From the NCBI GenBank assembly GCA_038063875.1, contig JBBTUH010000028.1, forward strand, positions 17,046 through 81,045: a DNA stretch of 64,000 bases, in the 5' to 3' direction. This DNA comes from Patescibacteria group bacterium. Its GTDB lineage: Bacteria; Patescibacteriota; Microgenomatia; UBA10105; UBA927. The notes below the pieces were generated by a model that saw only the letters and a program-made list of their open reading frames with translations, searched no databases and was not told where the DNA came from. This document shows positions 4,847 through 58,936 of this stretch, in pieces; the stretch's first letter is position 1; each line of letters opens with the position of its first letter. The translations under genes were made by a program, and so were the position numbers.

Positions 4847-4848
4847 AG

Positions 4849-6411: not shown

Positions 6412-6425
6412 AGTTATTATTCTAT

Positions 6426-7555: not shown

Positions 7556-7560
7556 AAAAT

Positions 7561-35100: not shown

Positions 35101-38100
35101 TTTCTGTAAGATTATTTGTAAACACGTGTGCAATAAAAAGCTTTGCCTGCGTTCGCTCTTCTTTTTTATTTGTGAGTTGGGCCACAACTTCACCCAAAAC
35201 AAAACTCAAATACTGCTGTGCTTCTGCAACGCCACTTATTTGCTCAAACCCATGATTAAACGCCGCATTTTCGGCTATATCCCTTTCAGCAAAAGACTGT
35301 TTGATATCAGCCTGTAATTGAACGCGCACAGCTTCTCGATCGTTCAAATACATTTCATACTGTAGTGCCAAAGCGATTCCTTTTTCTGGACCAAGGACAG
35401 ACTCCATAATTTCTCCAGTTCTTTGGGGAATCACTGCTCGTGCTGCTTGTGGTTGATCTTTTACATCACCAAGCCACGTTTCTATACTTTTATACATCTC
35501 GTTTATAAATTCTTTGTCACTCATCCCGCGAGCTAATAGAATATCATCAGAGGTGATTCCCTCTTCTTTCAGTCTCTGTCGAAGCAATAAACTAATTTCA
35601 CTTTTCTTTGCTCCATTTAAATACGCCTGAACAACTGGTCCATCCCGATGCGTAGCAAAAAGCAAAAAGTCCGCAGTGCGAACACGCAATGCATCTTGTA
35701 TGACAGGTAGAGATTCTAACAATCCCGTGATCAACAGCTGCCTATGCGCTGTACGCCATGCGGCTTTTGATTCTTCTGATTCTAATTTTGCAATGAATGC
35801 AGTGGATTCTTCTCTCGCCAGTTGTTTTTGTCGCAATTTTAGTAATTCAGCAGCTTTTATTTGCGATTCTGTAAGTGGTACGGTGATTGGCTTATCTACA
35901 TAAAATAACCCTAATCCATAGGCTGTAAGAGCTGGTTCTCCGAGATCCATCATGAAAGAAGCCTCATCCATCACTTTCTGTACTTCACCAAACATGTTCC
36001 ACAATGCAATTGGAGGGACTAACGCCGGTGTCAAAGCTTCACCTGCAACTGCAGTAAGAAGCAATACTTGTGGGTTTGATATGGATTGATTCGCTTTTCT
36101 CACTTCTGCCGCACGTTTTTCAATACTAGGAGCTAACTCAGCAGCTTGTTTTACTGCGGCAATTTCTAATACTGCCCTACGATCCTGTTCTGCCCTCAAC
36201 TGTTCGAGTTGCAACGCTAATTGTTTTTCAGCGTCTAACGACGTAGTAATTGCGCTTATGTCCAATCGTGCTTGATCAGAGACTGATGCTTGATCAAACA
36301 AACGTTCTTCCGATTGCCCAATTTTTGCTGTAACAGACCGGAGTAATTTACCAACCTGCCTATCTAGTTGAAGCTGCAAAACAGTTTCAAATGCCAAAAA
36401 TGCTTCGGAAATTGCTTCTATTTTTTCCACAGTCTTAATGCGATCAAGTGCTTTATCTTTTAACAACACATCTAGCTCTTCAAGAAGTGACAATGGTGTT
36501 TCACGCGTCACTGTTAATCCTGCTGTATTTAAGGCATTTTTGAGCGTTCTTGTAGCTACACGTGATGTATTTGATAAAGGGAAAAAAGAAATGCGCGCAG
36601 CAAGAGACTGCAACCCTTGCACGAGTGGCGATATTTGTGCCCTACGTTCTGCTATTTGTTGTCGAAGTTCCTCTCGATGAACAGATCGTTTTTCTGCTGC
36701 CCTCAATTTCTTTTCTTCATCTACAATTTTTTGCAATCGTGCCTGTTCTTGCGCGTCTACCTTACTAACTCGCAACTGTTCAGAAGCATCTTGTGTGGCA
36801 AAAAATGCATCTACTTTCTGTTGCAATGCTTCATCTTCCTTTTCCATCTGTGCCAATCGCTCTGTAGCATACGTTTGACGCGCTTTCTCAATGACTTCCT
36901 GTCTCCACTCAGGATAATCTCTTTTGGCATCGACAAATAACGTGGCGCTAATATTTCTTCTTTTATCAACTAACATTGCATCAATACGAGCTTGTAGTTG
37001 TTCTTCTGATCCACCAAAGACTATTAACTTATGTAAAGCGGAATTAGTCACAAATATATTTTTCAACGTTCCTAGTTGCATAAGTGCGGTAAGCTGACGA
37101 ATCTGGCTTCCCGTTTGAATACTTCGCGACACACCACTACTAAATGGCAAAGTTAGTTCAACGACAGGACCAACAACTGGCGTGACACCAGTTAATAACG
37201 AACGTCCGACTAATTGAGGAGTTGTAATGGAACTATCAACCTCATCCAATGCTTTAAATACTGCAGCTACTGAACGGCTCCAGCTTGCCATATCTTTATA
37301 CACTTGGTCTTCAGAATCTCGCCGCTGAGTTTGTGCTTTTTTGATATCATTTGCATATGTTTTATTGAGCGTCTGCGTTGTGCCACTAATCCAATCTGAT
37401 TTTTTTAGATTAAGAAGCGCAAATATCTCATCGGTCACATTATTTTTGTCTAAAACACCTTGAATAGTCGTTTGTACAACTTGTTCAGAGTACCCACCAA
37501 CGATTGCATTCTTTACATATTCATCTTTCAAAATAACGCTTTGTACTGTGGTCAATAATATATTTGCGTCTATTTGTCGAATTCTCTCAGCTTCTTCCAC
37601 CTTCTGTTGTTCTCCAATATCTGTAACCAACGCATCTATCGCAATCCGTTTTTTTTGAGCAACCTGTGCTTGCTCCCTCGTTAATCGATCCGCTTCACGC
37701 GCAACGGATTGTTGAGCAACTTCACGCAGTCTCCTTGCTACTCTCAAATCTTGTAGCTTTTTTCTTGTATTTACGTATGCAGTAAATTGTCGAATTCGTG
37801 GAAAACCAGTCACTACTGATGAAGGCACGACTACTGGAATCAACGCATCTTGTATCACATCTAAACGACCACCTACGCGCAATTCATTACCCGTGAGCCA
37901 AATCGCCTGAGAGAAATTTCCCAAATATTCAGTGATTAAGGCAAATGGGCTTGACGCCCCACCACCCGGTGCGTCACCACTTTTTCTCATCAACAAATAC
38001 TGTGCTATATCTGCAACAATTTGGTTATAGGAATCTGTCGTTATACTTTTAAAATTTGGACTAAACTTAGTGAGGGTGTTTTCTATTTCTGTACGATGGG

Positions 38101-41100
38101 TCTTGAGGAAATCTGCTTCAGACACTCCTTCCCTCACCCACTCAGAGCTTGATTTCTCCAATGCCTTCAATGCAAGCTGTTCTTGGGTAAGCACTGTAGG
38201 TATTTGATCTGTATTGACAGTGATTGATATGATTGTCCGAGCGTAGACCTTAAGGAGCTCCTCAACCAAATTATTGTCAATTGCTTGAACAAGGTGTGGC
38301 GAAACGTGATCTTCATTCCACGTTGCGTTTTGAGTTAATGCTCGGATGATCTCTGCAGAATCTGATGGCACATTCGTCAAATCTCCAGCTGTAAGAGTAG
38401 CAAGCACTCGAGCAACAATCTGTTTCTCCGTAGCACTTGTTAACCCAACAATATTTGCAAATTGATCCAAAATTTTCTGCACCTCTATTTTCGCCGAAAC
38501 GGGTATAGATTCTCCCTCACTCCATACATTATATTTTCTCAAAAACAAAACGAATGCATTGATGCGATCTGTAATAGAATCTAAAATGACTCTGTCCGTT
38601 TCTCTATACTGCAAATCTTTCGGTGCTACTGCGTTGTAGTTTGTTATGGTTCGTAGTAATAATGCTGTCGTCGAATCAGCTTCAGTCGCACTTACTGATA
38701 CAGCATTTACATCTTGTTGGACTTGATAGATGGTCTGTAGCATTGGATCAATGAGGGTCGTACGCAATGAACTTCGAACATTAGCTGCTACTTGTGCGGC
38801 GGTTGACAATCTCACGGCAAGATCAGCGTTGGAATTTTCATCGCCTATAAGTAAAAAGGTTATATACTGCTCTAGCTTCGTGAACTTTTTATCTGCGGCA
38901 AATAGATCAAAAAATTCTATTAATTTTGCTTCGCTCATCGGGAGATCACCGTTATTTTTTATCAACGCTCTTAACTTTTCGCTAATTGTCTTGACTGCTT
39001 TTTCTGCTTGCGCATCGATTTTATCAAGATCAGTAATAGATTTGCGCCCTCTTACAAGCAATGTATCGACAAATGTCGATGCAAAGTCTGTAAGCTTTTT
39101 TTGTGTTCTCCCTGGTGCATTGGTATCTCCACTCTCTATCGATCTTACCCATGATGCAAATACGGTATCAATAGAAAATAATTTCTTTAACGTCCCAAAC
39201 GCTGTGAACTCTTTTCCATCTTCAGTAAACCATGCTGTGCGTACTACATCTGCTTGAATGTCTAAGATTGATTTCTTCGGCGCATTTTTAGCTGCAAGAA
39301 GCGCTATAATTTCACCATCTGGATCTTTATAGATAAATGGTTTTTCCTCTCCTATCCGGATATATAGTTGCCAGTCTTCGAGCGTGAATGCGCGTATTTT
39401 TTGCAATCCATTCTTTATCGACTCAAATAACTCAATAAAATCTTCTTTGGTCAACGGAACTTCATCTGTCGTTTGCTTTATACGAATGCTTCCTTTTTGT
39501 ATAGCCTCTTCCCGCCATATAACAGCCTGAAGCAATAGATCTACATACTCCTGTTGCGTCGAAGGGACGAGGAACGGAACCTCTGACGAATTTATAGGCT
39601 CTTTATTGAATAACGCTGGTGTCACCTCTATCGTCTCATTATATTTATCTTGATAAAGCCGTAAAAACTCATATACCGTCATCATCCGAGCCATTGCAAC
39701 AGAAGAAAGCTGTTTACTTTTGTAGTCGTATGGTAAATATAAGTCAAACTGTGGGCGATCCAATATCACAGTGAAAAGTAAAGAAAAGTAACCAACAGTA
39801 TACCTTCGTATCTCATCTACTGAAAGTTTAGGTCGATATTTATATGACCCATGATCAAATAACATAAATGTATATGTCCCATCATCTTTTTTCACCAACA
39901 TAAGGTTATGTCCATAAATTAACTCAACATCATCAATGTACATATGATTCTTTGATAATTTCTCAATAAAATTGATATACAATGGGGCAAGCTCTGCCGG
40001 TGGTAAAGCTTCATATATCGCTCCAAACTCTACCCCTACCACCAATGGAGCAATATAAAATAAATGTGACGGAGATACATATGACACGGGGTTAACCAGT
40101 CTCGATTGAACAGCGTCTTCTGGTAATCTTCGATATTCTGCTAACCCTAAATAGTCTCCAACTGGCTTAACAATAAATCGCTCTAGATTTGACCTATTTG
40201 TTAACTCATATACTATTCGAGAATTATCTTCAGCATTCGGCAACGCCCGAATTACCCATGTGTCATCCAAAATTGTGCTTACAATTTTTCCTGACTGAAT
40301 ATATTCGTATATTTTATTGTCTGAATCGATCGATAAATCGATTGTATTTATGCTTAATTGAGTAGCTTTATAATGCGAATATAACGCCTTCATAACCCGC
40401 TCTGTTATCAATGTCAGATTCGCCGATTGCAACTTAAATGATGCTAATTTCAAATACTTTTGAACCACTACGGTGTAGCTCAACATAAACTCTACTTCTG
40501 TCGTTGGCGCCTCATGTCCGGCAAGAACTGACTGTGGATCAACCCATATCTTGGTCATATCGTTAATAAGCCCTATTACACTTCCCTGACTTATATCTCC
40601 AAGCAACAATGCTTGCACAAACCCAGTCAGATATTCCAATGCGCCATCCGTATTCTTATCTATAGCTGCTTTCAAATCAGTAAGGGGCTTTTGTACCTCT
40701 GACTGATTTAGTGCGTTTATTACTGCGTCATACGTTGCGACTGGAATAACCACTCCTTTAAATGCCAGCTCGATTGCCTTAATCAATGGCGCCTGAAACT
40801 CAGGCTTTAAACTATCCGGCGTCAACTTGCCCGCGATGTATTGGTTTGATTTTTCTTGCACTTTTTTATGCAACTGCTCCTGTGAAATGGGTGGCTGATT
40901 TGATTTACCAATATCCGAATATAAGCCAACTTCTTTCGCCAAACTCAACCATGCGATAATATCCGCTTCTATACTCTTAATCTTCTTTAATCCATCAGTA
41001 TCAGCTGGTAACTTCGACGTATCAAAAACTTTAAACATAGTATTTGCTTTACTCGCGTTAATCAATTCATCTTCATTGTCCTTTGTGTCTGCAAGAATAT

Positions 41101-44100
41101 ACTTTTGCCCTACCCAAAACTTTAACGATAATGGGGTTTCGTTTTCAAGAACGCCTAAACCCCCAAATTTCTGCTCAATAACTACCTTTTCTATAATTGC
41201 CAAAACCTTCGGCCCGAACCCTTTCCCAGGATCTGTTGCATCAAGTTTACTTATGACGGGAATCACGGATAACCCACTTTGGCCTAACAAGACAGGAATT
41301 AATGTGTGATTTAGCGCATCAGACACAAACGGGTCTGGCTTAAGAAAAACGATTTCTATCTTATCAAGCAGCGATGAGGATCCATCCATAACAAGGCCCA
41401 CACCGCGTGAGGTTTTCTGTAGAGAAACTCTGATCCCATTGGTTTCTTTATTGCTATCAAATTCCTTATTGAGAGCATCTCTGATCGCCTCAACTTTATC
41501 TTGTTCGACGAAAGCTACTTCTTTATCCAAAGGCACAGCTTGTTTATTTTCCAACCCATCAACATATTTTTGAGCTTCTATGATCTTATCGTCATATATT
41601 TCTCTAAGCGTTGGGATAGTATAACCGCTAAGAGTATTCACGACCTTGGCCCCAAGTCTCTCCAAGACAGCCAAAACAGGGTTTGTTGACAACGTTTCTG
41701 TTTGTTTCAAAACGTCGACTAATGCTTCAAGCTCAGTTTGTGGATCATCCGCAATCTTCATCTTCATGATCGCGTCAAAGTCCGATAGATACATGGTGTT
41801 TATAAAGCTACCTACCGCATCGATAACCTCTTTATTTTCCACAGGCTTCTTTGACGCCTTTACTAATTCGTTTGCCAGTTTAAGACGGTCGTCATTTGAA
41901 GCCTTGCTATATCTTTTCGCCTCATCAGGTTTATTGAGTATCCGCATGATCTGCGCCAATTTTTGATTAGCAAAGTAGGCGGCAGTGCTAAAGAGCATTT
42001 CATTACCATCTTTTTTCTCCGCGTGTTTTTCTCGATCTGCCTCAACCATCGCAAGAATAGTTTCAAGATCACCCTTTGCGTCTTCGTGACGACCTTGCGA
42101 GAGCGCTTTTGCTATATTCGTAAACAAATCAATAAATTGATCTTTTAGTTTTAAACAATCATCACAAGCCTTCGGATTTGCACGCGCAGTTTCGGTTAAC
42201 GCACTTGAGAGATCCTGAAATTCTGTTGTTACGTTTATGCCAAGGTTCTCAACTTCTTGCTCTACAAATTCATCGCCTGCGCTCAATAATGCGACGGGAA
42301 CAACTCCGGATTGTAATACACTATCTGCTCGTTTCAGAGCTTCTAGCTCATTGGTAAAGAAGAAGTTAGCATCTATCACATCTTCCATTTGTCCAATGAT
42401 GGGGAGAATCACATCTGCAGAGGCGCGGGTCGCAGGCGCAGTCCCGCCGTAATTCGTTATACCGCCTGTTACAGCTGCTATGACGCCATCTACAGTCGTA
42501 GGTTTTGTGTCGGATATAGCTAATCCTGTTTCTTGCAACTCTAAAAGCAAGGGCAAAAGCTTCGCCACTTTATCCGGCTGTTCTTCAAGTGGTATTTCAA
42601 TCGCTTCTTGAAAAACTTCAACCCGCTCTTTTACCCGCGCTCCAAACGATTGTTTCTCTTTTTCTACATCAGCATTTACTGTTTTTAGCCCATCGAGCGC
42701 AAATTCAAGCTGACCTTGTATTTTAATCGCTGTATCACGATTGATAATCGCATCGATGCTCACTAAAAAGCTCTGATCAGAAAGTGCTGTAAATATTCCA
42801 TCCAACGTTGTCGCTTTTGGAACAAATTGAACCCCTGCTTTTTCAAGCGATGACGATAATAGTTGTACAAGAAACGCGACTTTTTCTTTTCCAAGTGTTC
42901 CTTCTACATAGGATCGCTCAGCCCTAAGAAGCTCGATAGGAAACTGCAGAAGGAGTGATTTAATGATGCTAATTTCTTCAATGACTGGAGCTGGTTTTAG
43001 ATTGACGGCGTTGCCAACCGACGTCACGCTGGCTTGTTGAGCAACTTTTTCTGCAATCCTTGCTGCCACATTTATCGCCACCCGTGTCGCAGCCTCCTTG
43101 GATTGTGTTGTCAAAGATTTTCCTGTTGTTATAGCTTGAGCTATATACGTCGCAAGTTCAGCTCGGGCTGCTGCAATACTTCCTGGCAACCGATCTTTTT
43201 GATCCTTCAATAATGCGTTGAATTTCTCAACTAATGTTGCTTCCTGTTTCTCTGCCTCTGCCTGTAGAGCTGATTCATCAACCACAACATTAACAGTCGC
43301 TGGGGTTATTGTCGTAGAACTTGTTGTAGGATCTATTGCAACACGATCATCAGTGACTTTACTTCGTGCATCCTCAAGAACCAAAGCAATGCGCGTAAAC
43401 ACATCAGACGCTTCAATTGTCATTCGCACGAATCCCGCTGGGGGCAGGGCACTTAAGAACGTGGTTTGTAACTGCTCAAGCAGTACCACATCAGCTTGTG
43501 TATGTTCAATTATATTGCTGATAAGGGCTGAAAATGCTTGACCAAGCTTCACCTGATCTAAAAGATATTCTTGAAGCAATACAAAATTTGTGACGTTAAA
43601 TCCTTGCGCTATAAGCTTTTGAAGAATATCGCCTATCTCTTGTTGTCTCTCTACAACTGTTTTCGCTAACCCCAACTCAGATTCAGCTTGTTGTAATTTT
43701 ACCTTTGTCTCTTCAAGACTCGTGGTATTTATTGCCAAACTTGTTTCTACTTGTGTTATTTGTGTATCCAACGTATTCGATTCGAGGTTAGAAGCATTCT
43801 GTTGTGCGTTGGAAAGACGCGTAACTACAACCGCTTGTCTTGCTTGAAGTACTTGGAGTTGTGCTTGTACTTTCCGTGCTAATTGCAATGAATTATCAAG
43901 CTCTGTTTGTTTTTGTGTAAGCTCTACCGTATTTTCCTGAAACTTTCCGAATGACTTACCTACGACAATGACACCTGCTGAAATATTATCAACCTTTCCT
44001 CCCGCCTTTTTAACCTTTGCATCAGCTAATGCACGAACTTGAGACACAATTTCCTGCGCGATCTCTTTTCCATTCGTCTTACCCTTTGTCACATCTACAA

Positions 44101-47100
44101 AAAACCCTCCAGGAACCCCTGTTTTGTTTGCAAAGTTTCTATTATTATATATTTTGTTATGCCATCGAAGTGGATCGATGACGCCATCACTTACGGAAAT
44201 TAATACATCACCTTCCTGAACCTCAAAGGATTCTCTTACAACATGCGACAAATTTTCATTATTTCCCTGTAGGGCTCCATATACAACGTTACTCATTGGA
44301 TGCTCACCGGCTTCTTTTACCGTAACTTCGCCCATCTCAAGTAATTCACCCACAATTGAATGATCTTTCATTAACAAAAAGGCTGTACCATTTCGAACAA
44401 CCCATGTTTCTGCGTCTCCTGTGTGAATCACATGCGCTATTTGTTTTCCGTTTACCTCTTCTAGAATTGTGATATCGACAACCGCGCCACCACCAGCAAG
44501 ATCTGCGTTTCGTATTTCCTGATTAAGCCTATCAAATGTTTCATATAACCGAGATTGAATATCGATACGTCCATTTGAGGGTATTGAGATTTCATTAAAA
44601 TATATTTCTGCCACACGATTTTTAATGATCTGTGCAGCTACCGCACCTGATCCTTTCGATCCCATACCACCCATACCGTCAACCTCTACCATCATCACGG
44701 ATCCAAAAGCCGTAATTCCTGTTACATTGCGAACGACCAGCGCCGCATCCTCCATTGGATTAGCATTTTTTAGATACTTAGTACCTTTGTCTTCAGCGAT
44801 TCCAATATCACTTGAGGGAGCCACCGCTGGAATTTGTGATTGTAATGTCGCAATGGACGCCCGCAAGGCAATATGTTGCTGTCCAATTCCCTGTAATAGT
44901 CGCTTCTGCTCGTCGACAACTCTTGTAATATCAGCCAATTCCTTTGTGAAATTAGACACTTCTTCATTGGCTTTTTGTATAGCTTGTGGAAGTGATTCTT
45001 TTTTATACGTCTCTAACTCTTCGCGTCTTGTGTTTGCTTCGACAACCAGTCGCTCGTACTCAACCTGTTTACGCTTCAAATCATCGATGGTGTTTTGCAA
45101 CACAACAAGACCATCAGCTTGTGTTTGTTGTGCAAGGGGTTCAGTAACATACACAATGCTCACACCAGCAACTGGAACCTTCAAATACTGATCGCCACCA
45201 TCTAACTTTACGATCCAATATAGTAATCCTCCATCACTAAGCCCACCAGATTCATTTTCATTACTTTTTACGGTAGCCCTTGTAGTAGTAGTAACACCAT
45301 CCGCTGTGTACGTCACCTCAACTTTAGCATCCACCTCCACTGGATTATTTGCCTGCATCGAAATATTCGTCGCACCAGCTATGTATTTATATCCTGAAAC
45401 GGGCGCAGTTTGTACTACGGGTGCAATTATTTTTTCTTTGTAGACTGTATACGAACCATCCGTATTTCTAGAAAATAATATCTTTTTGTTTCCAAATTGA
45501 TAGGTAGTTTGATCTACTGGAATATCTATTGATGTACTTTTTACCACAGGGTTATCTTGTGCATCCACCACCCCATCTGCGTCAATAACAAGGTTTAATG
45601 ATTCAATATCGTTTACATTTTTTAAATTCACATGTGCATATTGCGTAGTGATGCCAGTTTGATTATTCGCAAAAACTATCTCTCCGGATACAGTAAGCCC
45701 AAAATAGACAGTCTGATTCCCCGAGATTACACCCATCAGTTCATAGATAGCCAGATCCACAGATGTTACGGGGACTGTGACTGGTGCAACAGGAATCGGC
45801 GCGACTTGTTGTGCCACAATAGATGAGGTCACATGATCTGCAAGTTTGTAGGATCGAACGCGGGCGAAATATTTCAACGGTGATTCTGGCCAATGAAGAT
45901 CCCAATACAAAAATCGTAATCGTCCTTGCGATGCGTTCAGGAAATTTGGTGTTTTATAGCCATCACTCAAAAACCTATGCACATCGTATGCCCACAACGA
46001 ATGTGAGATGGTGGAGAGAGGGAATGGTGTGAGAAACAATCCGACGCGTGTCAGCGCCCACACCACCGTATTGTTTCGTGGTGTCGCATTGAGAATACTT
46101 CGTGGAATAAACGAATAGAGATACCCATCGAGACTCCATTCATTAGGCTCTGTGATCGGAAGATCACTCAAAGGTGAGCGATACGGTACGGTAGGCGTAC
46201 TATTTGCCCGCATCACCGCGCTTTGCACCATCCTCATGCCCAACATGTGAGGAGCGGTAAAGAATCGTGTAACTGATGTCACTGTCTGCCAAAATCTATT
46301 GCCCAATGATGTGTTTGTATCACCGAGCGCTAAAAATCGTGCATTATAATAATGCTCCCAAAATCCTTCACGACTTCCCGCAAGAATATTAATCACCGTT
46401 GGCCGCATCAACACGGATTTCCACAGGCCACGCCATATACTGGGATTGGTGTCACTTAAGACGGTAATAATTCGCTCACCCAATATAAAATCTCTGGCAA
46501 GGGGTGTGCGCATGAGTGCATTGGCCAGTGCTACCACTGGAGCACGAACAGGCCATGTCACAAAACGAGCGATATCCCAGCCCCATGTGGCCGTTACATA
46601 GTACCCTGCCGCCAACGGATTGACGAGCCCAATACCAAATGGCACAGCCACCCGAAGCGTGGTCCACACCGCCAATTGTCCTGCACGTTCAGAGAGTGGC
46701 AATGAGCGATTAAAAACAGCAAAGGGGTTGGGACTTATGAGCCAATGTTTGACCATATCCCAACGCTGACTGAGTGTGAGACTTGCAGGAATTTGCGGTT
46801 GTGATTGTGCTACTTGCCCAGTAATAACCTGTGCTATTTGCTCTGGGGTGACATTTCGCGCATCGGCAAGTATAGAACCAATCACGTTTGTTATCGTTTG
46901 ATTCGGATCAGATAAATTAGCTATCGCAATAAGTAGCTTTTGCACACTACCCGTTGTCGTCTGATCGTATGCATTACTTATGACGCCACTCTCCATTTGT
47001 TCAAGAAGCGTCACCGTAATATTTGCCGCAGCCAACCCTAACGCAGCTGTTACATCAGGCGTTGGATTCGTAATTCCCAATGCTTGGGTCAACTGTTGTT

Positions 47101-50100
47101 GTATGTGTGCTTCAAGTGCTGTGTGAATCGTGTTAAATGATAATTTTGCTTGTTCCATAGCTGCCGCACGTTGTTCTAATTCTTGTAGTTTTTGTGGCGC
47201 TATCACGGTCGCTACATTCGGTCGATAAATGGTGGCAGTCGACAAATTAATTACATTTCTGTTTCGTTGTATAAATGCTTGTTCTGTACTCCCATTTCGT
47301 ATCGATAACCCTTGTGGAAATAACAATACTGCACTATTTGATGGATCATACTTTAGAGTCGAACTATCAGCTCCGCGTGAAAAGAATACGTCAGTAGAGT
47401 TTGCTCTAAAAGCATATGCAAAATCTGCCGGATTATCGATCCGTAAATTATAGGTATTTCCATCTGATGCAACATAACGAACCACATCCCCTGTTTTTAA
47501 CCCATCTGTTATGTTTACAATGCTGAGCGCTTGATATCCTGTTCCTGTCACAGACTCATTTTTCATTGCAGATGCCCGCGCAAGTACCGCTATATTTAAG
47601 CTCTGTTCTGCTTTTACCAGTGCAGCAAGAAGTACGGCTGGGGCAGCAAGGGTGTTACTGGTTGGACTTACTATTGCACCCTGTGGGACAGGCTGATCTA
47701 TGGGTATTTTGGGCACTTGTGCCCGTGACGGGACAAATTTTACTAGATCTTGAGGCTTCAAAATTGTGGGTATAAATGCTTGTCGAAATGCTTGCCAATT
47801 TTTGGCGATAAACTGTCCAAAGACTAGGGCTCTACTTGGTTGTGTCGCATTTGTAGCTTGCTGTAGTCGTGTTTGCTGATATGCAAGTACTTTTTGTAAC
47901 GGTGCCTCTTCAAGGCTGGCGATCAGTGGCGCCGTGATAGCCTGACTCATCTCTTCTACAAGCGCTTTTTTGTGCTCTACATCTCTCACTTTATCTAAAG
48001 CACCATCAGAAAACGTTACTATTTGCCCTATGTTCGCCTCCATCGCGATACGCAAATCAGATTGTGCATTTTGCAATGCTTTATTCTTAAATATCACACC
48101 GGAAGCAAGCAATATTTGATCTAGTGCTTTGATAAGCGTTTCTTTCTCTCCTTTTGTTTGATCTAAAATAGTCGCCTTGGCTTGATCACTCTGCGCATTC
48201 GTACCCATGAGCCCAACTTGACGCGACACTGCATTTTCATACGTAACCATGGCTGCCGCTGCGATATTGAGCCCTGCTACAGATAATTGATTAATATTTT
48301 GTATACCAGATTTTGTCAGTGAGGATTTTATGCGCTTGATTGCGTCCGCTTTCAGCGCATCTGTGATTTGCGCATCTGTACTATTTGCTATGGGTGCAAG
48401 AATGGTCTCAATTTGAGCTATTTGTGTATTCAATTGTTCTAATTCAGGTGAATCTGGCAGAGCTAAAGATTTCTGAACTATAAACGTCTGCTGTCGCACG
48501 ACTAGCCTCGATCGCTCTTGTTGGGCAAGGGAGAGTATGTGTCGTTCTTCTGGGGTTATAGATTTGCCTGAGATTGCTTTCTCCATCACCGTTTTCGCTT
48601 GACCTATCGCATCTACAGCGACTTTTGTAGACTCCACACTTCGTGCCGCAGCTGCTCGTTCTAGCTGCGCAATTTGCTCACGCGTGGATGTTTGTGGTGT
48701 TTGCCGACCCTCACGGCCTATGGTAGCTGCGATATCTGACTCAAATATCGCTTTGTTTATAAGTGCTGTTCTATCTGTAATGCGTGTCGCTCCCTGCAAA
48801 CTTGGCCGCACAGTGGACTCCGTGGGTGATCCAGCTTGAAGCGCTATTGGGACATCTTCATAGTTATAAATATTTTTTAGATAATACTCACGCACTTGTA
48901 TAGGTAATTTTGTAAATTCGGGGGTCGAGCGAATGCTGTTTATAAAATCGCGGGTCCGTGTAGCTGCTTTTTGAATAGCGACTGTACCTACTTGGGACGA
49001 TTCCGTAAGTGCATCGTTTACTCCTCCCACCTTGTCAAACTGCAACTTTAATCCATCAGAAAGAGACATTTCTCTTCCTTCATAATTCATCGTAAAGTCT
49101 TCCCCACCATATTGCTTCACCATTTTAGCCAATGAATCAATCGTATTTTTGACCATGTCAGAGTACCCATGGATCAAACTATTCGTAATTGAAATTTGTG
49201 TGCTGGCTGTTTCATTGGCAAGAAGTCGACTCCCTGCCTCCTCCAAAGCAATTGGTGTTAAACCATCTGCGGCTTGTCCATCAAGAAGATACACAGTGGT
49301 TTTTTCAGGTATTTCTCGAAACCTTCCAATACCTTGTGCGGCTGATGTTTGTGTGAGCGTTTTCGAGCTTCCAAAAAGATACGATGCGTCAGAGGGTGTG
49401 AATACACCTTGAATATCGGTCCCTCTTCCAGACCCTTGATCAAAAATCATGACAAACTTCTTGCCTGCTCTATTTTTATACGCGTATTCTTCTTCAAATC
49501 GCTGTATTGCCGTTTTTTCATTGTCCCCAATAATAGTTCTTTTTATTTTTCCATCCTGATCATAAAAAACTACTTTTTCATTTTCCGCAATATTTGTATC
49601 ATTATTTATTACGATCATTTCTACATCATCACCTAATGCGTTTGTCTTTTTTCGAAGACTTTGCAAGGTTATTTCTTTTGAATAATCTGGCATCTCGAGT
49701 ACAATTCGAGCGACACCCTCTGTACCTAATTCAATATTCGCATTGTCTACATCTTTTGCCCCAAACCATTCCGAATACTTAACGGGTTTTGTACTCTCTG
49801 AGCCAAAAATCTGAATAATAGATGTGAGTTTTTTTACTCCCGGAACGACAAGTTGCATATCAAGCGATAATTGAGCATCCAAAATAATGCTCTCTGGAGT
49901 ACCGGTAAATCCATACAGTCTATCTGCATAATGTCCCGTTCCAAGAGTCTGTTTCCATGATGAAGATTCTCCCTGAAGGGATACCGTGACCTGATCGATA
50001 AAGGCATTCGCTTGATCATGGGTAAAAGGCTTATTGCGCAATGAATTTTTTATCATTTGGCCAACAGTATCAAGTGCTAGTGCTTCATAGAGCGCTTGTG

Positions 50101-53100
50101 GCCGAGTATTTTGAAGCCTCCCTGTCCCGTCGCCGTACACCAATATGCCTTTCGGATCGAATCCATATCCACTTGTTGATCTACTTGATTGCTCCACAAT
50201 AGCATTTACTACTCCCGCTCTATCACTAAATTCTCCTTTAAATTCGCTTGAAGCTTCGTTTCCTTGATGATATTTTTCAAGTGCGGCTATCACCTCTCGT
50301 GAATTTGTCCGAGGATTTCCTGCCTCGTCATGGGTAATAGCATTCTTCTGCAAAAATTCTTCTACTGTTTGTGTGTCTCCTTGCGCCCTCGTCTTTTCAA
50401 ATGCTTGCCTTGCTGCTTCTAGGACTAAATCTTTGTACAATCCTTTTGCCAAATCTGTATCTGCAAGGGAGACGCTTTGTCCTTTTTGTACAAAAAGATC
50501 CTCTCCTATAGATCCTCCATTTTTCACGGTGCTCGCCTTTTCTATGAAATTTTTCGCTAAATCAGAATTAAATACGTCTCGATATTTTTGCGTTCGTATG
50601 GGATCATAGTCAGCTGCCAATCGTGAATCACCGCCGGAAGAAAACTGCATGCTATTTGCGATCACATCAAACTCGTCGATAAGAAGCATGGCTCCTTTTG
50701 TCCCCTCTCGAAACCCTTGCGTGAGAAGATCAGCATTTCTAGAGGCATGAAACTCATAAGGGGTCTCCAGCGTCGGGCTGTAAATGATGTCTGCATCGGA
50801 AAGTATTTGTTTGGCAAGTACATCATTTTGCCCATTGGTGATCTTATGAATACCTTCCGCATCGGCATAAATAATTTCTCTTCCCGAAGGATTGTAATAC
50901 ACTGCCTTTACACCGTTTTTATGGTGTACTAAAGGACTGTAGTCTTTCATCATACCCAAAACATCAGCCCACGAAGTAGCAAGAACGTTTACTTTCGCAC
51001 CGGTGAGCTTTACTTTTGCATCAGCAATTGCATTAAGAAGAAATGCAGATTTTCCTAAACCCGTCTGCCCGTTAAACAAAACACCTTTGACTGAACCAGA
51101 TATTTCCGTATCAAACAATGCTTTAATAAAAATTTCTGACTGATCTACTCGGGTCAAATGATCAGGCCCAATCATTTCGGAAATTCTTTCCTCTGTGGCT
51201 GTCGATAAATTTTCTTCTATTTTCTTTAAAAAGCTCGATGCTTCTTCAAGCATTTGTCTCGCTGCTTCTGTAGGCGGCCTACCGACGCCTGATTCTTTTG
51301 CCTGATTATCAATCAACTCTAGCTGTTTCTGCGCATTTCGCTCAATATGAAACCCTTCATTCTTCATCACATCTGCAACAACTGATAACTTACCAAGCGT
51401 GTTTGCTATCGCAACTTGCTTTTCAATCGATATTTCCTTCGGTCCAAACCACTTATATCTAAGGCTTGATGTATACGTCTTATCTTTTGCGTTTGCGATT
51501 GCCAACGCCTCATCGGCTTTCACCGTCAGTTCTTTTATCGCTTTATCAAAGGACTCAATATCTTTTGTTTGTTCAGTGGTTGGAGCTCCTCCTGCCTTTT
51601 CTACCAATGCACGTCTATTGGCAACAGCATCAGTCACCAAAGTAAGTGCGTCTGTATACTCAAGTCGCGCAGTATATACTGCCTCACGAACAGATTTCCC
51701 TGTTATAGCATCACTTATTGCTTCTCGAATCGGCTTCGTCGCCAAATCAAATCTTCCTCGCAACGAGCCTGCCTTAGCCAGCTCTGCCTGTTTTGCTATA
51801 ACCTCTCCACGTATCTTTGCACTGTTTTGTGACAATGATTGCATTTCTTGTGATTTATTATTTGCTGCAGCTACAGATCGCTCAGCTATACCTTTTGCAA
51901 ATATTCCATCCGCTTCAAGTTTGTTGAGCGATTCAAGCGCTTCCTTCGTGCGCGCGAGCATGCGTTCCGTTTCTTTAATTACTGATTCTGGCTGATTTGC
52001 ACGCGCTTTTAATTCTGCCAAATAGTCACTTGTTGCTTTGAGTGTTTTTTCATATGTTTCTTTCACCTTTGGCAACTGCGATGGATCCTTAATCACTTCA
52101 TTTTCTATAAGAATTTGGGTTTGTTTGGCTTCCACGTCGACAAGTCCATCCTTTCCTTCTTTGCCATACTGCAATTCTCGAATAGCTTGTGAGATCGTTC
52201 GCTCAATCGGTGTTTTCCGCGCTTCTATGGCAAGAGCTTTTGTAAGTTCTGTCGCTTGCAGTGCCGCAAGATATTTAGAAGACGTATTGCCCTCGGTACT
52301 TGCTATAGCTGAAAGTTCTTTGGCAGCGAGTCTATATGCCGCGAGTTCTTTCGTTTCTCTACCCGTCAATCTATCAAGAAGCGACCGATCAGGAGCACTC
52401 AGCGCTACTTTTTCCGCATTGTAACTCTGCTCTGCTGCTCGCACTGCCAATCGTGCTGATTCAACTTTTTGTATTGCCAACACTTGCTCAACCGGCACGA
52501 GCAACCCTGCTTGATTTTCAGTTTCACCCGTAGAAATAGTTCTCTTTACTACACCATCCGCATCTACAAATCGTTTTAAGACCTCCAAACTTTCCAAAAG
52601 GTTTTTGCCCACGACGGTTTGTTTGGCACTCGAATCATTCGCAAGCTGTTTTGAGAGCTCGAGCAGTTGATACGTCTCCCGCGCGACCGCATTTGTCGTA
52701 ATTCCGAGCCTGTTATTCACTTCAGACTGCATGCTCAATCTCGTCGCGTCTGTTATTTCAATTCCACCTATTGTTAATTTCTGGCCATTTTTCCAATTAA
52801 CAAGCGCTACCTTGTCCGCTATCGCTTGTGCCTGCTCAATATAGGGATTTTCTATAGTAGTAGGTTTACCAACGGCTTGTGTCTGTGCCAACTGCCCCTT
52901 AGAAAGCCCCGCCATCATGATAGTCGTTGCACATTGCTCAAACGGTACGCTTCCCGCAGCCGCTGCCGCACACGCGACTGCAGCTTGCCCGGTGTTTGTG
53001 TATAAATCCAAGCGTCCGATCGCTGTATTTGTCGTTTGCGAAATTATTGGTGACCCTTTTGGAACAAGGCTTGCAAGCCCTGTCACCGCTCGAGCACCCA

Positions 53101-56100
53101 TAACGGTTGCCATGCTAATGGAAAGCGCACAGTCGACCGTCAAGCGTCCTGCTTTACCACATGTGTCTGCTGCATTTAACGTAAATACTGTTGTTCCGAG
53201 TGCGTCACGGCCAATATGTGCAGCAGTGCTTTCGATAGGACTATATACATTCCGTATCAAACCACGTACGACATCGTCAGAAGAAGCGATAATCGCCTGT
53301 GCTGACAACCCTTCAGCATCTGCAAATGTTCTGAGTTTTAACACTGCATCATCAGCAGGAGCTATACGCGCGAGTATTTTTGCACCGCGTGAAGTTTTTG
53401 CCACAGCATCAGTCACAATACCGACGCCTGCTCCCGTTTCTACTGCTGCAGTACGAGCTAACGCGTTGACAGCTTTTAACCCAGAAAGTGATGACCATCC
53501 TGCAAACGCAGTCATACCAATAGATCTTCCACATGCCCAACCGTCCATACCTTGATACCATGTACACGCTTCTGTCGTGTCTTGCAGGCTTGTTCCCGTC
53601 ATATAAATTCCCATTGCATTTCCTGCAATTGATAAACCAGCTGTAGATACAATTCCTGTGCTAATTGCGCGAACAAGCTGAGCTCCGGGAAGAGCTATGG
53701 ATAAAAGTGTAGCTGTGGGTTTAGCAGCCTGCATGGTGTAACCACGAACTTGATCCCAAATTTCTTGGCCGCAATTTGAATTTTCTTTTACCTCATTCCC
53801 GCTGCATACTGCAAAAACATGCGCATTCTCTTTCAGTAGCTGGCCCTTGAGAAATCCACCATTTTCAAATTTGTTAAGAGCCAAGGCAGCGCTAACTAAT
53901 GGGCTATTCTTTTTTAAATCAGAAAGTGCTGCAGATGCCGCTACTGCGTCGTAGGTTCCATCCAACACTTTCTCAAACGTAATATCGACCCCTCCTGATC
54001 CCATAAGAAACTGGAGCTCTTGATCCCGAAGAAGTGCCGCCATCTGTATTTTTTGCTGCTCTATCGGTAACGTAGACGTAGTTTTGTTGTTCTCAAGATA
54101 AGAAGAAGCAATGATATCCGCCTGCTGATCTAAAAGAATCGACTTTTTTGCATCTATAGCTTCTGTGTATGCACGATTACGATAGTTTGCAGACGCACCA
54201 AACTGTCCTGTCACAGACGCTAACTCTGATTTGTATTTCTCTTGCCAAAGCGCCATTTCCTGTGCATACGTGTCTATATTTACGCCGCTTAGCGCTGCTC
54301 GTTCAAGCCACTTGGGATCAAAGGCTGCAAACCCATCTTTATTTTCTATGACATATCCGTACCCAGCGCTCATCCGGTCGGTCTCTGTATAGGCAGCAGC
54401 CACATTGTGCACCATATACTCGTATACATCGTCTTTTTTAGGATCAAGCGCGGCCGTTTTTTTCCACGTTTCAAACGCTTCCTTTTTTTCAGGATCTATA
54501 GCTAACTGCACCTTGTATTCAGAGAGCGCTATTGTAGCGTCGCTATACCGTATGTCTGCAGCTCGCAGTGCTGCGGCATCAAGATCCACTTGCGTTCGGA
54601 ATCTCTGGCTCAAAAAGGTATCGGGGTTTGCAAAGAAAACTGAACTAATCTTTACTCCTGCATCGATATTTTTATATTCCTCAATTGGTTTTATTTCTCC
54701 ATTCTTAATTTTTTCTATAAGCGCCGTCTCGCTATCCGTATCATTTGCCCGTACATATCCTGCAGCTTCAAATTTAGGTTTATGATTCAGATAAAATGAT
54801 AATTCTGATACCAGAGGGTCTTCTGCTGGAAGATCCGAAAAAATGCCTTTTGCCTTATTGTCTGCCACAAATTTGGTCACACTCCACCGATCAGCAGACC
54901 ACGCTTGCGTGCTTCGAACAAACGTGCTAAAAAAGTCATTTCCCTCTCGAAGCACTGGTTTGACTCCATCATCAGGTTTACCACTTCCAAACCAACCACC
55001 GGTAAGTACAACATCATTTTTTATGACAGGGTGCAACCGCTCTAGTTCTGCAATTGGATCCAATTGCCCTTTCGCAATCTTATTTAAATTCGTTTCAAGA
55101 TTGCCGGCGTTCTCCCATTCAACACGCAGCAAACCTATAGCCTTCTGTACCTCTGCGTCATACGTTTCACGAGAGGTGTCTTTTCCTTTATTTTTTGAGT
55201 CATTCTTCCAGTCTTCATATGAGACGTTCTGTGAACTACGCTCATTTAACGCCGTAACAAACGCTTGATCTTCTTTTGATAAAACTGCGAACACCTTTGC
55301 TGGGCGAAGATTTCTATCAGTGATTGTTCCCGCGAGTGCTGCCACTGCCGCCTCTGTAGTAGTAAATCGCGTTGTTGTAGAAATTTTCCCATCTTTTTTT
55401 GCCTGATTAAACGCATTCAGAATAGCTGCCTCATCTTTACTACCCATAAGTAATAGTTGTGATAACTGCAAATCATAAAGCCTGCTATTCACCGCACCAA
55501 GTTGGGTCGGCGCATTCTTTTTTGTAAAGTCTACAATCGTTTTGGTGACAAATTCAGGCTCACCACACTTATTCTTGTCCATTGTTGCAGTGACAAGCAT
55601 GCCGCAGAGAAGTCCCTCTACGCCAGGAGAGTCTTTATCAAGCATTGCAAGAAATATATCTGCACGCTGTGTCGCCACTTTTGCTGCTTCTGCAGCACCC
55701 AATAGTGGCGTAAGCTTCTTTTCAACTATATCTTGCGCAGTCTTAGTAGTACATTTCGGATCACCGTTACATAATCTTGTATTACTTTCATACAACGCGG
55801 TATATTTTCGCTGCTGTTGATATCCTTGATCAAGAATTTTTGCGATTTCTGCTTTTTGCTCCTCAGTCGTGGAAGAGGAGGCACTAACCTGCGCTCGTAC
55901 TTGCGCTTGAAGTGTTGACAACTCTTTTGACACATTTTGACAAGGATTTTCTGCTACTCCTCCTCTTCCTTTTATTGTTGATGGCTCTATTAAAGCCAAA
56001 CATTGCCCCATTTCTGCGTTTTTCAATACATATTCATACGTCAACTTCCCCAAAACAACCTCTTTATAATGAATTTCCCGTTTTTCTGCTGTATCCAAGC

Positions 56101-57637: not shown

Positions 57638-57678
57638 CCAAACCCCTGTCGTTTCGTAGATTTCAGTTTCTTATTAAG

Positions 57679-57749: not shown

Positions 57750-57765
57750 ATTTGTTTTTCTCTTG

Positions 57766-58921: not shown

Positions 58922-58936
58922 AATATAAAGGAGTGA

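What the first reader, a model, noticed from the sequence alone, without database searches (positions are those of the whole stretch)
49256..51103. SecA/DEAD-like SF2 ATPase motor embedded in the megaprotein (approx. residues 2075-2690)
An ordered set of motifs matches a two-RecA-lobe motor. Walker A is 'FNGQTGLGKSAF' (K2092) and Walker B 'AMLLIDEFD' (2214-2220). Motif III is 'GFTGTPE' (~2472), followed by 'FDQGSGRGTDIQG' (~2633) and the arginine-finger motif 'QGIGRFREIP' (~2664). The spacing, including a ~250-aa insertion between Walker B and motif III, parallels SecA (NBD1-PPXD-NBD2: GMTGTA, AGRGTDI, QLRGRSGRQG). Such a motor inside a surface-anchored giant protein is unexpected.
Basis: seen in the sequence. 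Interest (0 to 1): 0.7.

Follow-up and report, generated by a model that had tools for sequence, protein, structure and literature searches.

The report
Hidden SF2 ATPase in giant protein
A 13,399-residue protein of an uncultured Gottesmanbacteria-like (CPR) bacterium contains a strongly conserved, very divergent helicase-type (SF2) ATP-driven motor module that standard domain libraries miss; it resembles the SecA-like motors already reported in other giant bacterial proteins, but I could not show that it belongs to the SecA family.

Summary
The motifs are real, verbatim and correctly numbered, but lie on the minus strand, in ORF 17126..57325 (13,399 aa). Walker A, Walker B, YGFTGTP and Q..GR.R are invariant across orthologous giant ORFs (Gottesmanbacteria-type MAGs) and a 24%-identical 7,512-aa protein. 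The module (aa ~2060-2885) is the most conserved and most strongly purified part of the gene.

Pfam, NCBIfam, PADLOC and PDB sequence searches find nothing significant. AlphaFold failed (pLDDT 35 and 41), so the fold is untested.

Calibrated profile-profile comparison supports an SF2 two-lobe ATPase. The N-lobe matches DEAD-box (P=3e-5), SecA (1e-4) and UvrB (3e-4). The C-lobe matches DEAD-box (9e-4) and SecA (3e-3), with motifs collinear. Non-SF2 and reversed controls are negative.

SecA membership is not shown: no SecA_DEAD hit, and the insert (P=0.41) and C-terminal extension (P~0.1) do not resemble PPXD or the scaffold/wing domains.

A 2023 preprint already reports divergent SecA-like domains in most giant bacterial proteins, so the theme is known. 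This is a new, HMM-invisible variant in a CPR lineage.

The parts
17126..57325 (-). Giant ORF, 13,399 aa, TTG start. It hosts the module.
   Evidence: Orthologous ORFs of more than 5,800 aa run off the ends of loci L003-L009.
48671..51148 (-). Whole conserved ATPase module, aa ~2060-2885.
   Evidence: Homology block with P0007: mega 2067-2885 against P0007 1709-2521. Highest identity to orthologues, 37-52%. Lowest dN, 0.05-0.10, with dN/dS 0.04-0.17.
50660..51148 (-). RecA-like lobe 1, first part (aa 2060-2222). It holds invariant Q2062, motif Ia-like VLATSWADV (2114-2122), Walker A and Walker B.
   Evidence: hhalign query 54-222 against the DEAD-box profile 37-182, P=2.2e-5 to 3.4e-5, probability 72-76%. 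SecA profile P=1.2e-4. UvrB P=2.6e-4.
51047..51070 (-). Walker A / motif I, GQTGLGKS (aa 2086-2093).
   Evidence: T2088, G2089, G2091 and K2092 are invariant in the family.
50666..50689 (-). Walker B / motif II, MLLIDEFD (aa 2213-2220).
   Evidence: L2215, D2217 and E2218 are invariant; P0007 has LLADEAQ.
49931..50659 (-). ~245-aa insertion between motifs II and III (aa 2223-2465), predicted mostly helical. Conserved core GDGTGRLQNTRPQ..ALALDTVG at aa 2398-2422.
   Evidence: Not significantly similar to the SecA PPXD (hhalign P=0.41). dN/dS 0.07.
49892..49915 (-). Motif III, YGFTGTPE (aa 2471-2478).
   Evidence: Y, G, F, G, T and P are invariant. Aligns to SecA GMTGTA, P=0.018-0.02.
49226..49891 (-). 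RecA-like lobe 2 (aa ~2479-2700).
   Evidence: Lobe-only hhalign: DEAD-box C-lobe P=9e-4 over 166 columns; SecA motif III to VI P=0.0028 over 171 columns. This is the only AlphaFold segment with pLDDT of about 70, showing a beta-alpha-beta pattern.
49406..49435 (-). Motif V-like, GSGRGTDIQG (aa 2631-2640).
   Evidence: Conserved in the CPR orthologues. Degenerate in P0006/P0011 (SERATDI) and in P0007 (AHYGVD).
49313..49336 (-). Motif VI-like arginine-finger motif, QGIGRFRE (aa 2664-2671).
   Evidence: Q2664, G2667, R2668 and R2670 are invariant. Aligned to DEAD-box HRIGRTGR and SecA QLRGRSGR. The second Arg lies one residue closer than in the canonical motif.
48671..49225 (-). Conserved helical C-terminal extension of the module (aa 2701-2885), including GYSDMVKNTIDSL and TPEF..L....REYY.
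   Evidence: Conserved in the orthologues, P0006 and P0007. No significant similarity to the SecA scaffold/wing domains (P~0.1). dN/dS about 0.05.

Best explanation
Residues ~2060-2885 of the giant protein form a very divergent member of the SF2 (helicase/translocase-type) ATPase superfamily.

Anatomy:
- Two RecA-like lobes.
- A ~245-aa, mostly helical insertion in lobe 1, between Walker B and motif III.
- A ~185-aa conserved helical extension after lobe 2.

Mechanism (inferred from the SF2 superfamily):
- ATP binds between the lobes. Contacts are Walker A K2092/S2093, Walker B D2217/E2218 and perhaps a Q-motif-like Q2062 on lobe 1, and R2668/R2670 of Q..GR.R on lobe 2.
- Hydrolysis opens and closes the cleft and moves the insertion and the C-terminal extension against a bound polymer or partner.

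Shown here: the module is the conserved engine of a family of rapidly diverging giant proteins in Gottesmanbacteria-like CPR bacteria.

Inferred: it most likely sits on the cytoplasmic side, after the Cys-rich N-terminal part and a weakly hydrophobic cluster. It then acts like the SecA-like domains described in other giant proteins, as a polypeptide-handling motor that helps export or remodel the giant protein itself or a partner.

Status of the steps: the SF2 assignment is supported by computation. ATPase activity, substrate and topology are inferred. The confidence given applies to the SF2 two-lobe ATPase assignment; the polypeptide-motor role on its own is about 0.35.
For: - Motifs are present verbatim and invariant across the family, including the 24%-identical P0007. 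Enrichment of invariant columns at motifs: P=9e-11.
- The module is the best conserved block, at 37-52% identity. Flanks are 17-38%, and L006/L007 show no detectable similarity beyond about aa 3000. dN is 0.05-0.10 against 0.17-0.9 in the flanks.
- hhalign, N-lobe: DEAD-box profile P=2.2e-5 to 3.4e-5 (72-76% probability), SecA profile 1.2e-4 (55%), UvrB 2.6e-4 (42%).
- hhalign, C-lobe: DEAD 9e-4, SecA 2.8e-3, with motifs I, Ia, II, III, V and VI aligned in register and in order.
- Calibration: genuine SF2 families against the same 4-sequence DEAD profile give N-lobe P from 6.5e-8 to 6e-3 and C-lobe P from 2e-11 to 0.12. Rep, Rho, McrB and reversed profiles give P of 0.02 or more.
- Sub-threshold ResIII hits on the P-loop part of four members and one DEAD hit.
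- Precedent: divergent SecA_DEAD and preprotein-binding domains, lacking scaffold/wing, next to TM regions in most giant bacterial proteins, some together with Ser/Thr phosphatase domains (bioRxiv 10.1101/2023.11.21.568195). This protein has weak SpoIIE/PP2C and kinase hits.
Against: - No significant hit in Pfam, NCBIfam or PADLOC, or in PDB sequences with single-sequence or profile queries.
- The hhalign probabilities are moderate, at most 76%, from shallow profiles (Neff about 2.4), and about a dozen targets were tried.
- Motif V is not conserved in the most distant member, and motif VI has non-canonical Arg spacing.
- Membrane topology rests on a crude hydropathy scan.
- Nothing indicates the substrate.
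Confidence: 0.78

Rival explanations
1. It is a true but extremely diverged SecA homologue: NBD1 interrupted by a PPXD-derived insertion, then NBD2. It would be the same lineage as the SecA_DEAD/SecA_PP_bind domains of Omnitrophota and Actinobacteriota giant proteins, and it would drive polypeptide through SecYEG or through the protein's own membrane segments.
For: - The insertion sits exactly where SecA carries its PPXD, between motifs II and III.
- Motif III G[FM]TGT and motif V GRGTDI match the SecA forms rather than the DEAD-box SAT and ARGxD forms.
- Collinear hhalign hits to the SecA profile: N-lobe P=1.2e-4, motif III 0.02, lobe 2 0.0028.
- Literature precedent in giant proteins that also lack scaffold/wing domains.
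- L020 gives a second example of a SecA-like region inside a 2,948-aa Legionella plasmid protein.
Against: - No SecA_DEAD or SecA_PP_bind hit in any of 10 members, even at E<=10.
- The DEAD-box profile scores as well or better than SecA on both lobes.
- Insert against PPXD: P=0.41. C-terminal extension against HSD/HWD: P~0.1.
- The Legionella SecA-like giant does not bridge the two families.
- An insertion between motifs II and III also occurs in XPD/DinG-type SF2 helicases (my own knowledge, not tested here).
Confidence: 0.3
2. It is a nucleic-acid-dependent SF2 helicase or translocase domain, of DEAD-box, UvrB or ResIII type, acting on RNA or DNA. It could serve as one enzymatic cargo of a multi-enzyme giant effector.
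For: - The best profile matches are DEAD-box and UvrB, and the sub-threshold Pfam hits are ResIII and DEAD.
- A conserved Q about 24 residues upstream of the P-loop resembles the DEAD-box Q motif.
- The rest of the protein carries weak enzyme-like signals: SpoIIE/PP2C, kinase and LCP.
Against: - Motif III is TGT, not SAT. HsdR and RapA, the TGTP-type families, give no hhalign signal.
- The module is the conserved core while the putative cargo regions are hypervariable, which fits machinery better than cargo.
- No nucleic-acid-binding accessory domain was detected.
Confidence: 0.25
3. It is a degenerate pseudo-ATPase: an SF2-derived scaffold that binds nucleotide as a switch, or no longer uses it.
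For: Motif V is lost in P0007 and altered in P0006/P0011. Motif VI has unusual spacing. The sequence is extremely divergent.
Against: The Walker A Lys, the Walker B Asp-Glu and both motif VI arginines are invariant over the whole family, which is the pattern expected for a working hydrolase.
Confidence: 0.1
4. The motifs are a chance collection in a very long protein, and the region is not an NTPase.
For: A Walker A pattern is expected about once by chance in 13.4 kaa, and three other, non-conserved-looking matches exist. No curated HMM recognises the region.
Against: - The ordered chain occurs in 0 of 3000 shuffles.
- Motif positions are the invariant ones, P=9e-11.
- Profile-profile matches are collinear, in register and absent from the controls.
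- Purifying selection is strong.
Confidence: 0.03

Closest known systems
Divergent SecA_DEAD plus SecA preprotein-binding domains embedded in giant bacterial proteins (Omnitrophota 'Archaeovorin' and Dockerin types, and some Actinobacteriota); West-Roberts et al. 2023, bioRxiv 10.1101/2023.11.21.568195
   Same: - An ATPase module inside a protein of more than 10,000 aa that also has membrane-spanning segments.
- No scaffold/wing domains.
- Very long branches and rapid divergence.
- Co-occurrence with Ser/Thr-phosphatase-like regions.
- A cell-wall-related neighbourhood: here an LysM-M23 peptidase gene upstream and an LCP domain within the protein.
   Different: - Those domains are recognised by the Pfam SecA models; this one is not.
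- Its insert shows no significant PPXD similarity.
- The lineage is CPR (Gottesmanbacteria-like), which was not found in a term search of that preprint (0 hits for Gottesmanbacteria, Patescibacteria or Microgenomates; CPR appears only as background).
- The protein is 13.4 kaa, not more than 30 kaa.
Canonical SecA (E. coli b0098 and SecA/SecA2 of other bacteria)
   Same: - Order and spacing of motif I, motif II, a large insertion, motif III, then motifs V and VI.
- GxTGT and GRGTDI motif forms.
- Weak collinear profile matches.
   Different: - No HMM-level match.
- No detectable PPXD, HSD, HWD or C-terminal linker.
- Embedded in a giant protein and flanked by long, probably coiled-coil-like segments.
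- Motif VI is Q..GR.R rather than Q..GR..R.
DEAD-box RNA helicases (RhlE, DeaD, SrmB, RhlB)
   Same: Best profile-profile match for both lobes, with Walker A, Ia, Ib, DExD, V and VI in register. A conserved upstream Gln sits at a Q-motif-like distance.
   Different: - DEFD rather than DEAD, and TGT rather than SAT.
- A 245-aa insertion in lobe 1.
- Pfam DEAD and Helicase_C are not reached.
UvrB and ResIII-type SF2 N-terminal domains
   Same: P-loop to motif Ia region, 24% identical to UvrB 36-164 (P=2e-4). Sub-threshold ResIII hits in four members.
   Different: UvrB's insertions lie before motif II, not after it. There is no UvrB-specific domain. The hits stay below the curated thresholds.

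Membership tests
SF2 helicase/translocase ATPase superfamily | Walker A (motif I), GxxxxGK[ST] | tested here: met
   GQTGLGKS at aa 2086-2093. TG.GK is invariant in all members.
SF2 helicase/translocase ATPase superfamily | Walker B (motif II): hydrophobic strand followed by DExx | tested here: met
   MLLIDEFD. D2217 and E2218 are invariant; P0007 has LLADEAQ.
SF2 helicase/translocase ATPase superfamily | Motif III ([ST][AG]T) closing lobe 1 | tested here: met
   YGFTGTP is invariant in five full-length members. It aligns to SecA GMTGTA.
SF2 helicase/translocase ATPase superfamily | Second lobe with motif V and an arginine-finger motif VI (Q/HxxGRxxR) | tested here: inconclusive
   Q..GR.R is invariant, but the second Arg is shifted by one residue. 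GRGTDI is conserved only in the CPR orthologues. The lobe aligns to the DEAD-box C-lobe at P=9e-4 and to SecA NBD2 at P=0.0028.
SF2 helicase/translocase ATPase superfamily | Statistically supported profile similarity to established SF2 families | tested here: met
   hhalign N-lobe: P=2.2e-5 to 3.4e-5 (72-76%) against DEAD-box, 1.2e-4 against SecA, 2.6e-4 against UvrB. These lie within the range of genuine SF2 families under the same conditions. Controls give P of 0.02 or more. The support is moderate, not overwhelming.
SF2 helicase/translocase ATPase superfamily | Tandem RecA-like alpha/beta fold | tested here: inconclusive
SecA (Pfam SecA_DEAD PF07517, SecA_PP_bind PF01043, SecA_SW PF07516) | Match to the SecA_DEAD model | tested here: not met
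   No hit at E<=1 for the window sequence and none at E<=10 for 10 family members. No SecA among PDB sequence or profile hits.
SecA (Pfam SecA_DEAD PF07517, SecA_PP_bind PF01043, SecA_SW PF07516) | Preprotein cross-linking domain inserted in NBD1 between motifs II and III | tested here: not met
   An insertion of about 245 aa is at the right place. Its profile against the SecA PPXD profile gives P=0.41. The resemblance seen by eye, DGTGRL..RP against DEhTGR..GRR, is not statistically supported.
SecA (Pfam SecA_DEAD PF07517, SecA_PP_bind PF01043, SecA_SW PF07516) | Helical scaffold and wing domains after NBD2 | tested here: not met
   The conserved C-terminal extension, aa 2701-2885, against full SecA gives best P~0.1. 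No Pfam hit.
SecA (Pfam SecA_DEAD PF07517, SecA_PP_bind PF01043, SecA_SW PF07516) | SecA-type motif forms: GMTGTA (motif III) and AGRGTDI (motif V) | tested here: met
   GFTGTP and GRGTDI. Local hhalign hits give P=0.018-0.024. GRGTDI is not kept in P0007.
SecA (Pfam SecA_DEAD PF07517, SecA_PP_bind PF01043, SecA_SW PF07516) | Functional coupling to SecYEG and preprotein translocation | not testable with these tools
   Needs biochemistry.
Giant-protein SecA-like domains (West-Roberts et al. 2023) | Embedded in a giant protein with transmembrane regions and lacking scaffold/wing domains | tested here: met
   13,399-aa ORF. Strong hydrophobic segments at aa 45-63 and 8145-8163, plus weaker clusters. 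No scaffold/wing signal.
Giant-protein SecA-like domains (West-Roberts et al. 2023) | Recognisable as SecA_DEAD / SecA preprotein-binding by domain models | tested here: not met
DEAD-box RNA helicases (Pfam DEAD PF00270 plus Helicase_C PF00271) | Matches above threshold and the DEAD / SAT motif forms | tested here: not met
   Only one member, the P0007 fragment, gives DEAD at E=0.014, and there is no Helicase_C hit. Motif II is DEFD and motif III is TGT.
ResIII (PF04851) | Match above the gathering score (22.5 bits) | tested here: not met
   11-13 bits in L003, L004 and L005, with E of 0.08-0.4. Best E is 0.0011, for the P0007 fragment. Only the P-loop part of the model is covered.

The most novel reading that the evidence does not exclude
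The module founds a new SF2 family, invisible to current HMM libraries. Together with the adjacent conserved weakly hydrophobic cluster (aa ~1200-1480) and the flanking, probably coiled-coil segments, it would form the invariant engine of CPR giant proteins: a built-in, SecA-independent motor that exports, extends or retracts a hypervariable multi-kiloresidue payload used in episymbiotic contact with host cells.
Probability: 0.2. Interest if true: 0.75.

Novelty: new variant of a known kind. Interest (0 to 1): 0.45.

Why it matters
Giant proteins take up 2-6% of the tiny genomes of episymbiotic and predatory bacteria, and almost all of their sequence is unannotated. This work shows that the one block kept under strong purifying selection in the Gottesmanbacteria-type giants is an SF2 ATPase that domain libraries miss. 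That has three consequences:
- The 'motor inside a giant protein' theme, reported for Omnitrophota and Actinobacteriota, extends to CPR bacteria.
- The theme may be under-counted wherever detection relies on Pfam.
- There is now a compact, testable handle (aa ~2050-2900, with K2092, E2218 and R2668) on how such proteins are exported or operated.

It does not overturn anything. The general idea is already in the literature, and the precise family and the substrate remain open.

Tried and rejected
Searches and tests that led nowhere:
- **Plus-strand reading of the coordinates:** nonsense.
- **Pfam on the whole 13.4-kaa protein and on the region at E<=1; NCBIfam; PADLOC:** nothing in the region.
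- **phmmer and hmmsearch against PDB sequences with the single sequence, A1 and A3:** only chance hits (MJ0327, MarR, GcvH, IIGP1).
- **Word-indexed homologue searches, three times:** only near-identical fragments.
- **Exhaustive phmmer against 1.84 billion representatives:** 8 hits. One, P0008, is a WD40 false positive on 'AFNPSG'.
- **tblastn of the region against plasmids:** nothing.
- **Viral-contig scan:** nothing.
- **AlphaFold with the full 10-row alignment:** The permitted 7-row alignment gave pLDDT 40.8.
- **Legionella geestiana giant protein with a SecA-like region as a bridge to SecA:** no useful signal.
- **By-eye PPXD resemblance:** rejected as unsupported.
- **C-terminal extension as SecA scaffold/wing:** unsupported.
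- **HsdR and RapA (TGTP-type SF2) as closest relatives:** no signal.
- **Fic-like HIKPDGNGR, HEKLH, ART-like and GGDEF-like segments seen by eye elsewhere in the protein:** no Pfam support at E<=1.

Full report
**What is there.** The window carries one enormous minus-strand ORF, 17126..57325, of 13,399 codons. The finding's coordinates make sense only on that strand: the plus-strand translation is full of stops.
- GQTGLGKS, aa 2086-2093
- MLLIDEFD, aa 2213-2220
- YGFTGTPE, aa 2471-2478
- GSGRGTDIQG, aa 2631-2640
- QGIGRFRE, aa 2664-2671

**Is it more than chance?** In a 13.4-kaa protein a bare Walker A pattern is expected about once. There are four matches, and three of them look incidental. 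A loose ordered pattern for SF2 motifs I-II-III-V-VI is found once, at 2086-2670, and in none of 3000 shuffles. That pattern was written after seeing the sequence, so conservation is the better test.

**Relatives.** The family is tiny in public data.
- Three word-indexed searches returned only near-identical fragments.
- An exhaustive phmmer scan of 1.84 billion representatives gave eight hits. They comprise fragments at 35-90% identity, one WD40 false positive (P0008), and one 7,512-aa protein, P0007, that aligns at 24% identity over the whole region.
- Degenerate-pattern scans of the genome and metagenome contig collections found orthologous giant ORFs. L003, L004 and L008 are 95% identical in the probe, L005 and L009 64%, L006 57% and L007 55%.
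- L007 is Candidatus Gottesmanbacteria RIFCSPHIGHO2_01_FULL_46_14. All of these ORFs exceed 3,300-6,100 aa and run off the fetched DNA.
- A syntenic contig (L001) has the same Rho and LysM-M23 neighbours, but its giant gene is broken into fragments.

**Conservation.**
- In the alignment, TG.GK[ST], the Walker B D-E, YGF[TS]GTP and Q..GR.R are invariant. GRGTDI is kept in the CPR orthologues but not in P0007.
- Of 45 motif positions, 20 are invariant across five full-length members, against 47 of 671 other positions (Fisher P=9e-11).
- Windowed identity shows that aa ~2000-2900 is the best conserved block of the first 6,000 residues, at 37-52%. The flanks are 17-38%, and nothing is detectable beyond about aa 3000 in L006 and L007.
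- Against the two closest orthologues, dN in the module is 0.05-0.10 (dN/dS 0.04-0.17), against dN of 0.17-0.9 in the flanks. dS is near saturation, so the ratios are approximate.
- P0007 shares only two blocks with this protein: the ATPase module (mega 2067-2885) and the LCP-containing region (mega 8185-8507).

The module therefore extends about 185 aa beyond motif VI, and it is the conserved core of otherwise fast-evolving giants.

**What kind of ATPase: library searches.**
- Curated libraries are silent. Pfam over the entire protein finds only LytR_cpsA_psr at aa ~8393-8492, and nothing in the region even at E<=1. NCBIfam and PADLOC find nothing.
- PDB sequences searched with the sequence or with family profiles give only chance hits.
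- Scanning ten family members one by one gives sub-threshold ResIII hits on the P-loop part in four of them (best E 0.0011) and one DEAD hit (E 0.014). SecA_DEAD never appears.

**What kind of ATPase: profile-profile comparisons.** I built my own reference profiles:
- SecA: 11 SecA/SecA2 sequences from E. coli and from PLSDB records.
- DEAD-box: four E. coli paralogues.
- Single sequences: UvrB, DinG, RapA, HsdR, Rep, Rho and McrB.

| Comparison | Result |
|---|---|
| N-lobe vs DEAD-box | P=2.2e-5 to 3.4e-5 (72-76%); Walker A, Ia, Ib and DExD in register |
| N-lobe vs SecA | P=1.2e-4 (55%) |
| N-lobe vs UvrB | P=2.6e-4 (42%) |
| Lobe 2 alone vs DEAD-box C-lobe | P=9e-4, 166 columns, motifs V and VI in register |
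| Motif III through lobe 2 vs SecA | P=0.0028, 171 columns |
| HsdR, RapA | no signal |
| Rep, Rho, McrB | P=0.02-0.15 |
| Reversed profiles | P=0.23-0.39 |

As calibration, genuine SF2 families against the same shallow DEAD profile give N-lobe P from 6.5e-8 (SecA) to 6e-3 (RapA), and C-lobe P from 2e-11 (UvrB) to 0.12 (DinG). The new family lies inside that range. I conclude that the superfamily assignment, an SF2 two-lobe ATPase, is supported with moderate statistics. It survives correction for the roughly dozen comparisons made.

**Is it SecA?** The features that suggested SecA are real. The insertion lies between motifs II and III, and motifs III and V have the SecA forms. The top hhalign sub-alignments to SecA are collinear: 97-215, 322-344, 384-413 and 495-514. 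But SecA scores no better than DEAD-box. The insert profile against the PPXD profile gives P=0.41. The C-terminal extension shows nothing like the scaffold or wing domains. A Legionella plasmid giant protein with a bona fide SecA-like region (L020) does not bridge the families. My impression of a PPXD-like 'DGTGRL..RP' core came from memory and eye, and it must be regarded as unsupported. An insertion at this position is also found in XPD/DinG-type helicases (my own knowledge). SecA membership is therefore not demonstrated.

**Context and likely role.**
- The N terminus has a strong hydrophobic segment (aa 45-63) preceded by basic residues.
- 27 of the protein's 35 cysteines lie in aa 1-1500, and none in 1501-5000.
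- A weakly hydrophobic Gly/Ala-rich cluster at aa ~1204-1466 is the second best conserved block.
- Long charged segments lie on either side of the module. From the residue pattern I take them to be helical and probably coiled-coil; this was not computed.
- A second strong hydrophobic segment (aa 8145-8163) directly precedes the LCP domain, which in known LCP enzymes is extracytoplasmic (the last point is established knowledge).
- Weak SpoIIE/PP2C and protein-kinase signals occur further on.
- The gene follows Rho, an LysM-M23 peptidoglycan peptidase and two tRNA-Ala genes.

West-Roberts et al. 2023 report that most giant bacterial proteins have many TM regions and divergent SecA_DEAD plus preprotein-binding domains without scaffold/wing domains. 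They propose self-export, and they note Actinobacteriota giants combining these domains with Ser/Thr phosphatases and GGDEF.

The most economical reading is that this module is the CPR counterpart of that theme: a cytoplasmic ATP-driven motor belonging to the conserved machinery of the giant protein. The substrate, the topology and even the ATPase activity are inferences.

**Verdict.**
- Observation: confirmed.
- Interpretation: partly supported. The region is an SF2 motor; it is not shown to be SecA; and such a motor in a giant protein is not unexpected in view of the literature.
- Novelty: a new variant of a known kind, namely an HMM-invisible SF2 family forming the conserved core of giant proteins in a CPR lineage.
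- Interest: moderate.

Noticed in passing
window 17126-57325 (-), aa 1-1500 vs the rest: 27 of the 35 cysteines lie in the first 1,500 residues, and none in aa 1501-5000. This suggests a compartment or domain boundary just before the presumed coiled-coil and ATPase part.
   Followed up: partly
window 52886-53728 (-), aa ~1200-1480: A Gly/Ala/Ser-rich, weakly hydrophobic cluster is the second most conserved block of the giant protein (25-38% identity to the orthologues, dN/dS 0.11-0.16). It could be a membrane-inserting or anchoring element paired with the ATPase.
   Followed up: partly
window 31850-32893 (-), aa 8145-8492: A strong hydrophobic segment (aa 8145-8163) is followed by the only above-threshold Pfam domain of the whole protein, LytR_cpsA_psr (E=1e-5). 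This block, aa 8185-8507, is the only other region shared with the distant giant P0007.
   Followed up: partly
window ~44100-44300 (-) (aa ~4360-4400) and ~26900-27200 (-) (aa ~10040-10136): Sub-threshold SpoIIE/PP2C (E=0.006) and protein-kinase / RIO1 (E=0.004 / 0.02) hits. The Fic-like HIKPDGNGR, HEKLH, ART-like and GGDEF-like stretches seen by eye got no Pfam support.
   Followed up: partly
window 57678-57836 (-) and 57836-60556 (-): Two tandem tRNA-Ala genes (GGC and CGC anticodons) lie immediately upstream of the giant gene, preceded by an LysM-M23 peptidoglycan endopeptidase gene and rho. The Rho and LysM-M23 neighbours recur next to the giant gene in locus L001.
   Followed up: partly
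L001 (ENA ERZ1286166 contig_3783, 363 kb): In this ~87%-identical relative the giant gene is called as many short ORFs (P0003, P0010 and others). These are probably frameshift errors of the assembly rather than real pseudogenisation. It shows how giant genes get fragmented in protein databases.
   Followed up: no
L003-L006 (GTDB representative genomes CAYIBX01, CAYIXE01, CAZNKB01, CAZUOM01): These MAG records are titled 'uncultured Gammaproteobacteria bacterium'. Yet they carry orthologues of a giant gene otherwise found in Candidatus Gottesmanbacteria (L007), and the window's gene content looks CPR-like. The record titles are probably placeholders or mislabels.
   Followed up: no
L020 (Legionella geestiana plasmid NZ_CP041715.1, CDS 453-9296): A 2,948-aa 'hypothetical protein' on a 13.8-kb plasmid contains a region 25% identical to E. 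coli SecA residues 98-602. This is another SecA-like module embedded in a very large protein.
   Followed up: partly
L018 (Pontibrevibacter plasmid NZ_CP049813.1), and hits H24 and H27: Truncated SecA-like proteins of about 660 aa, annotated 'DEAD/DEAH box helicase' or falling under a 'prepilin peptidase' annotation. One lies next to a PqqD-family peptide-modification chaperone and an RND adaptor on alphaproteobacterial plasmids. This may be a dedicated export system.
   Followed up: no
window 7561-7983 (-), 16351-16746 (-), 15963-16283 (+), 14685-15869 (+): By eye, the genes downstream of the giant gene look like two PIN-like toxin genes, a nucleotidyltransferase-like small ORF and a P-loop/ATPase-like gene. 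NCBIfam gave the last of these only weak hits, and the others were not searched.
   Followed up: no
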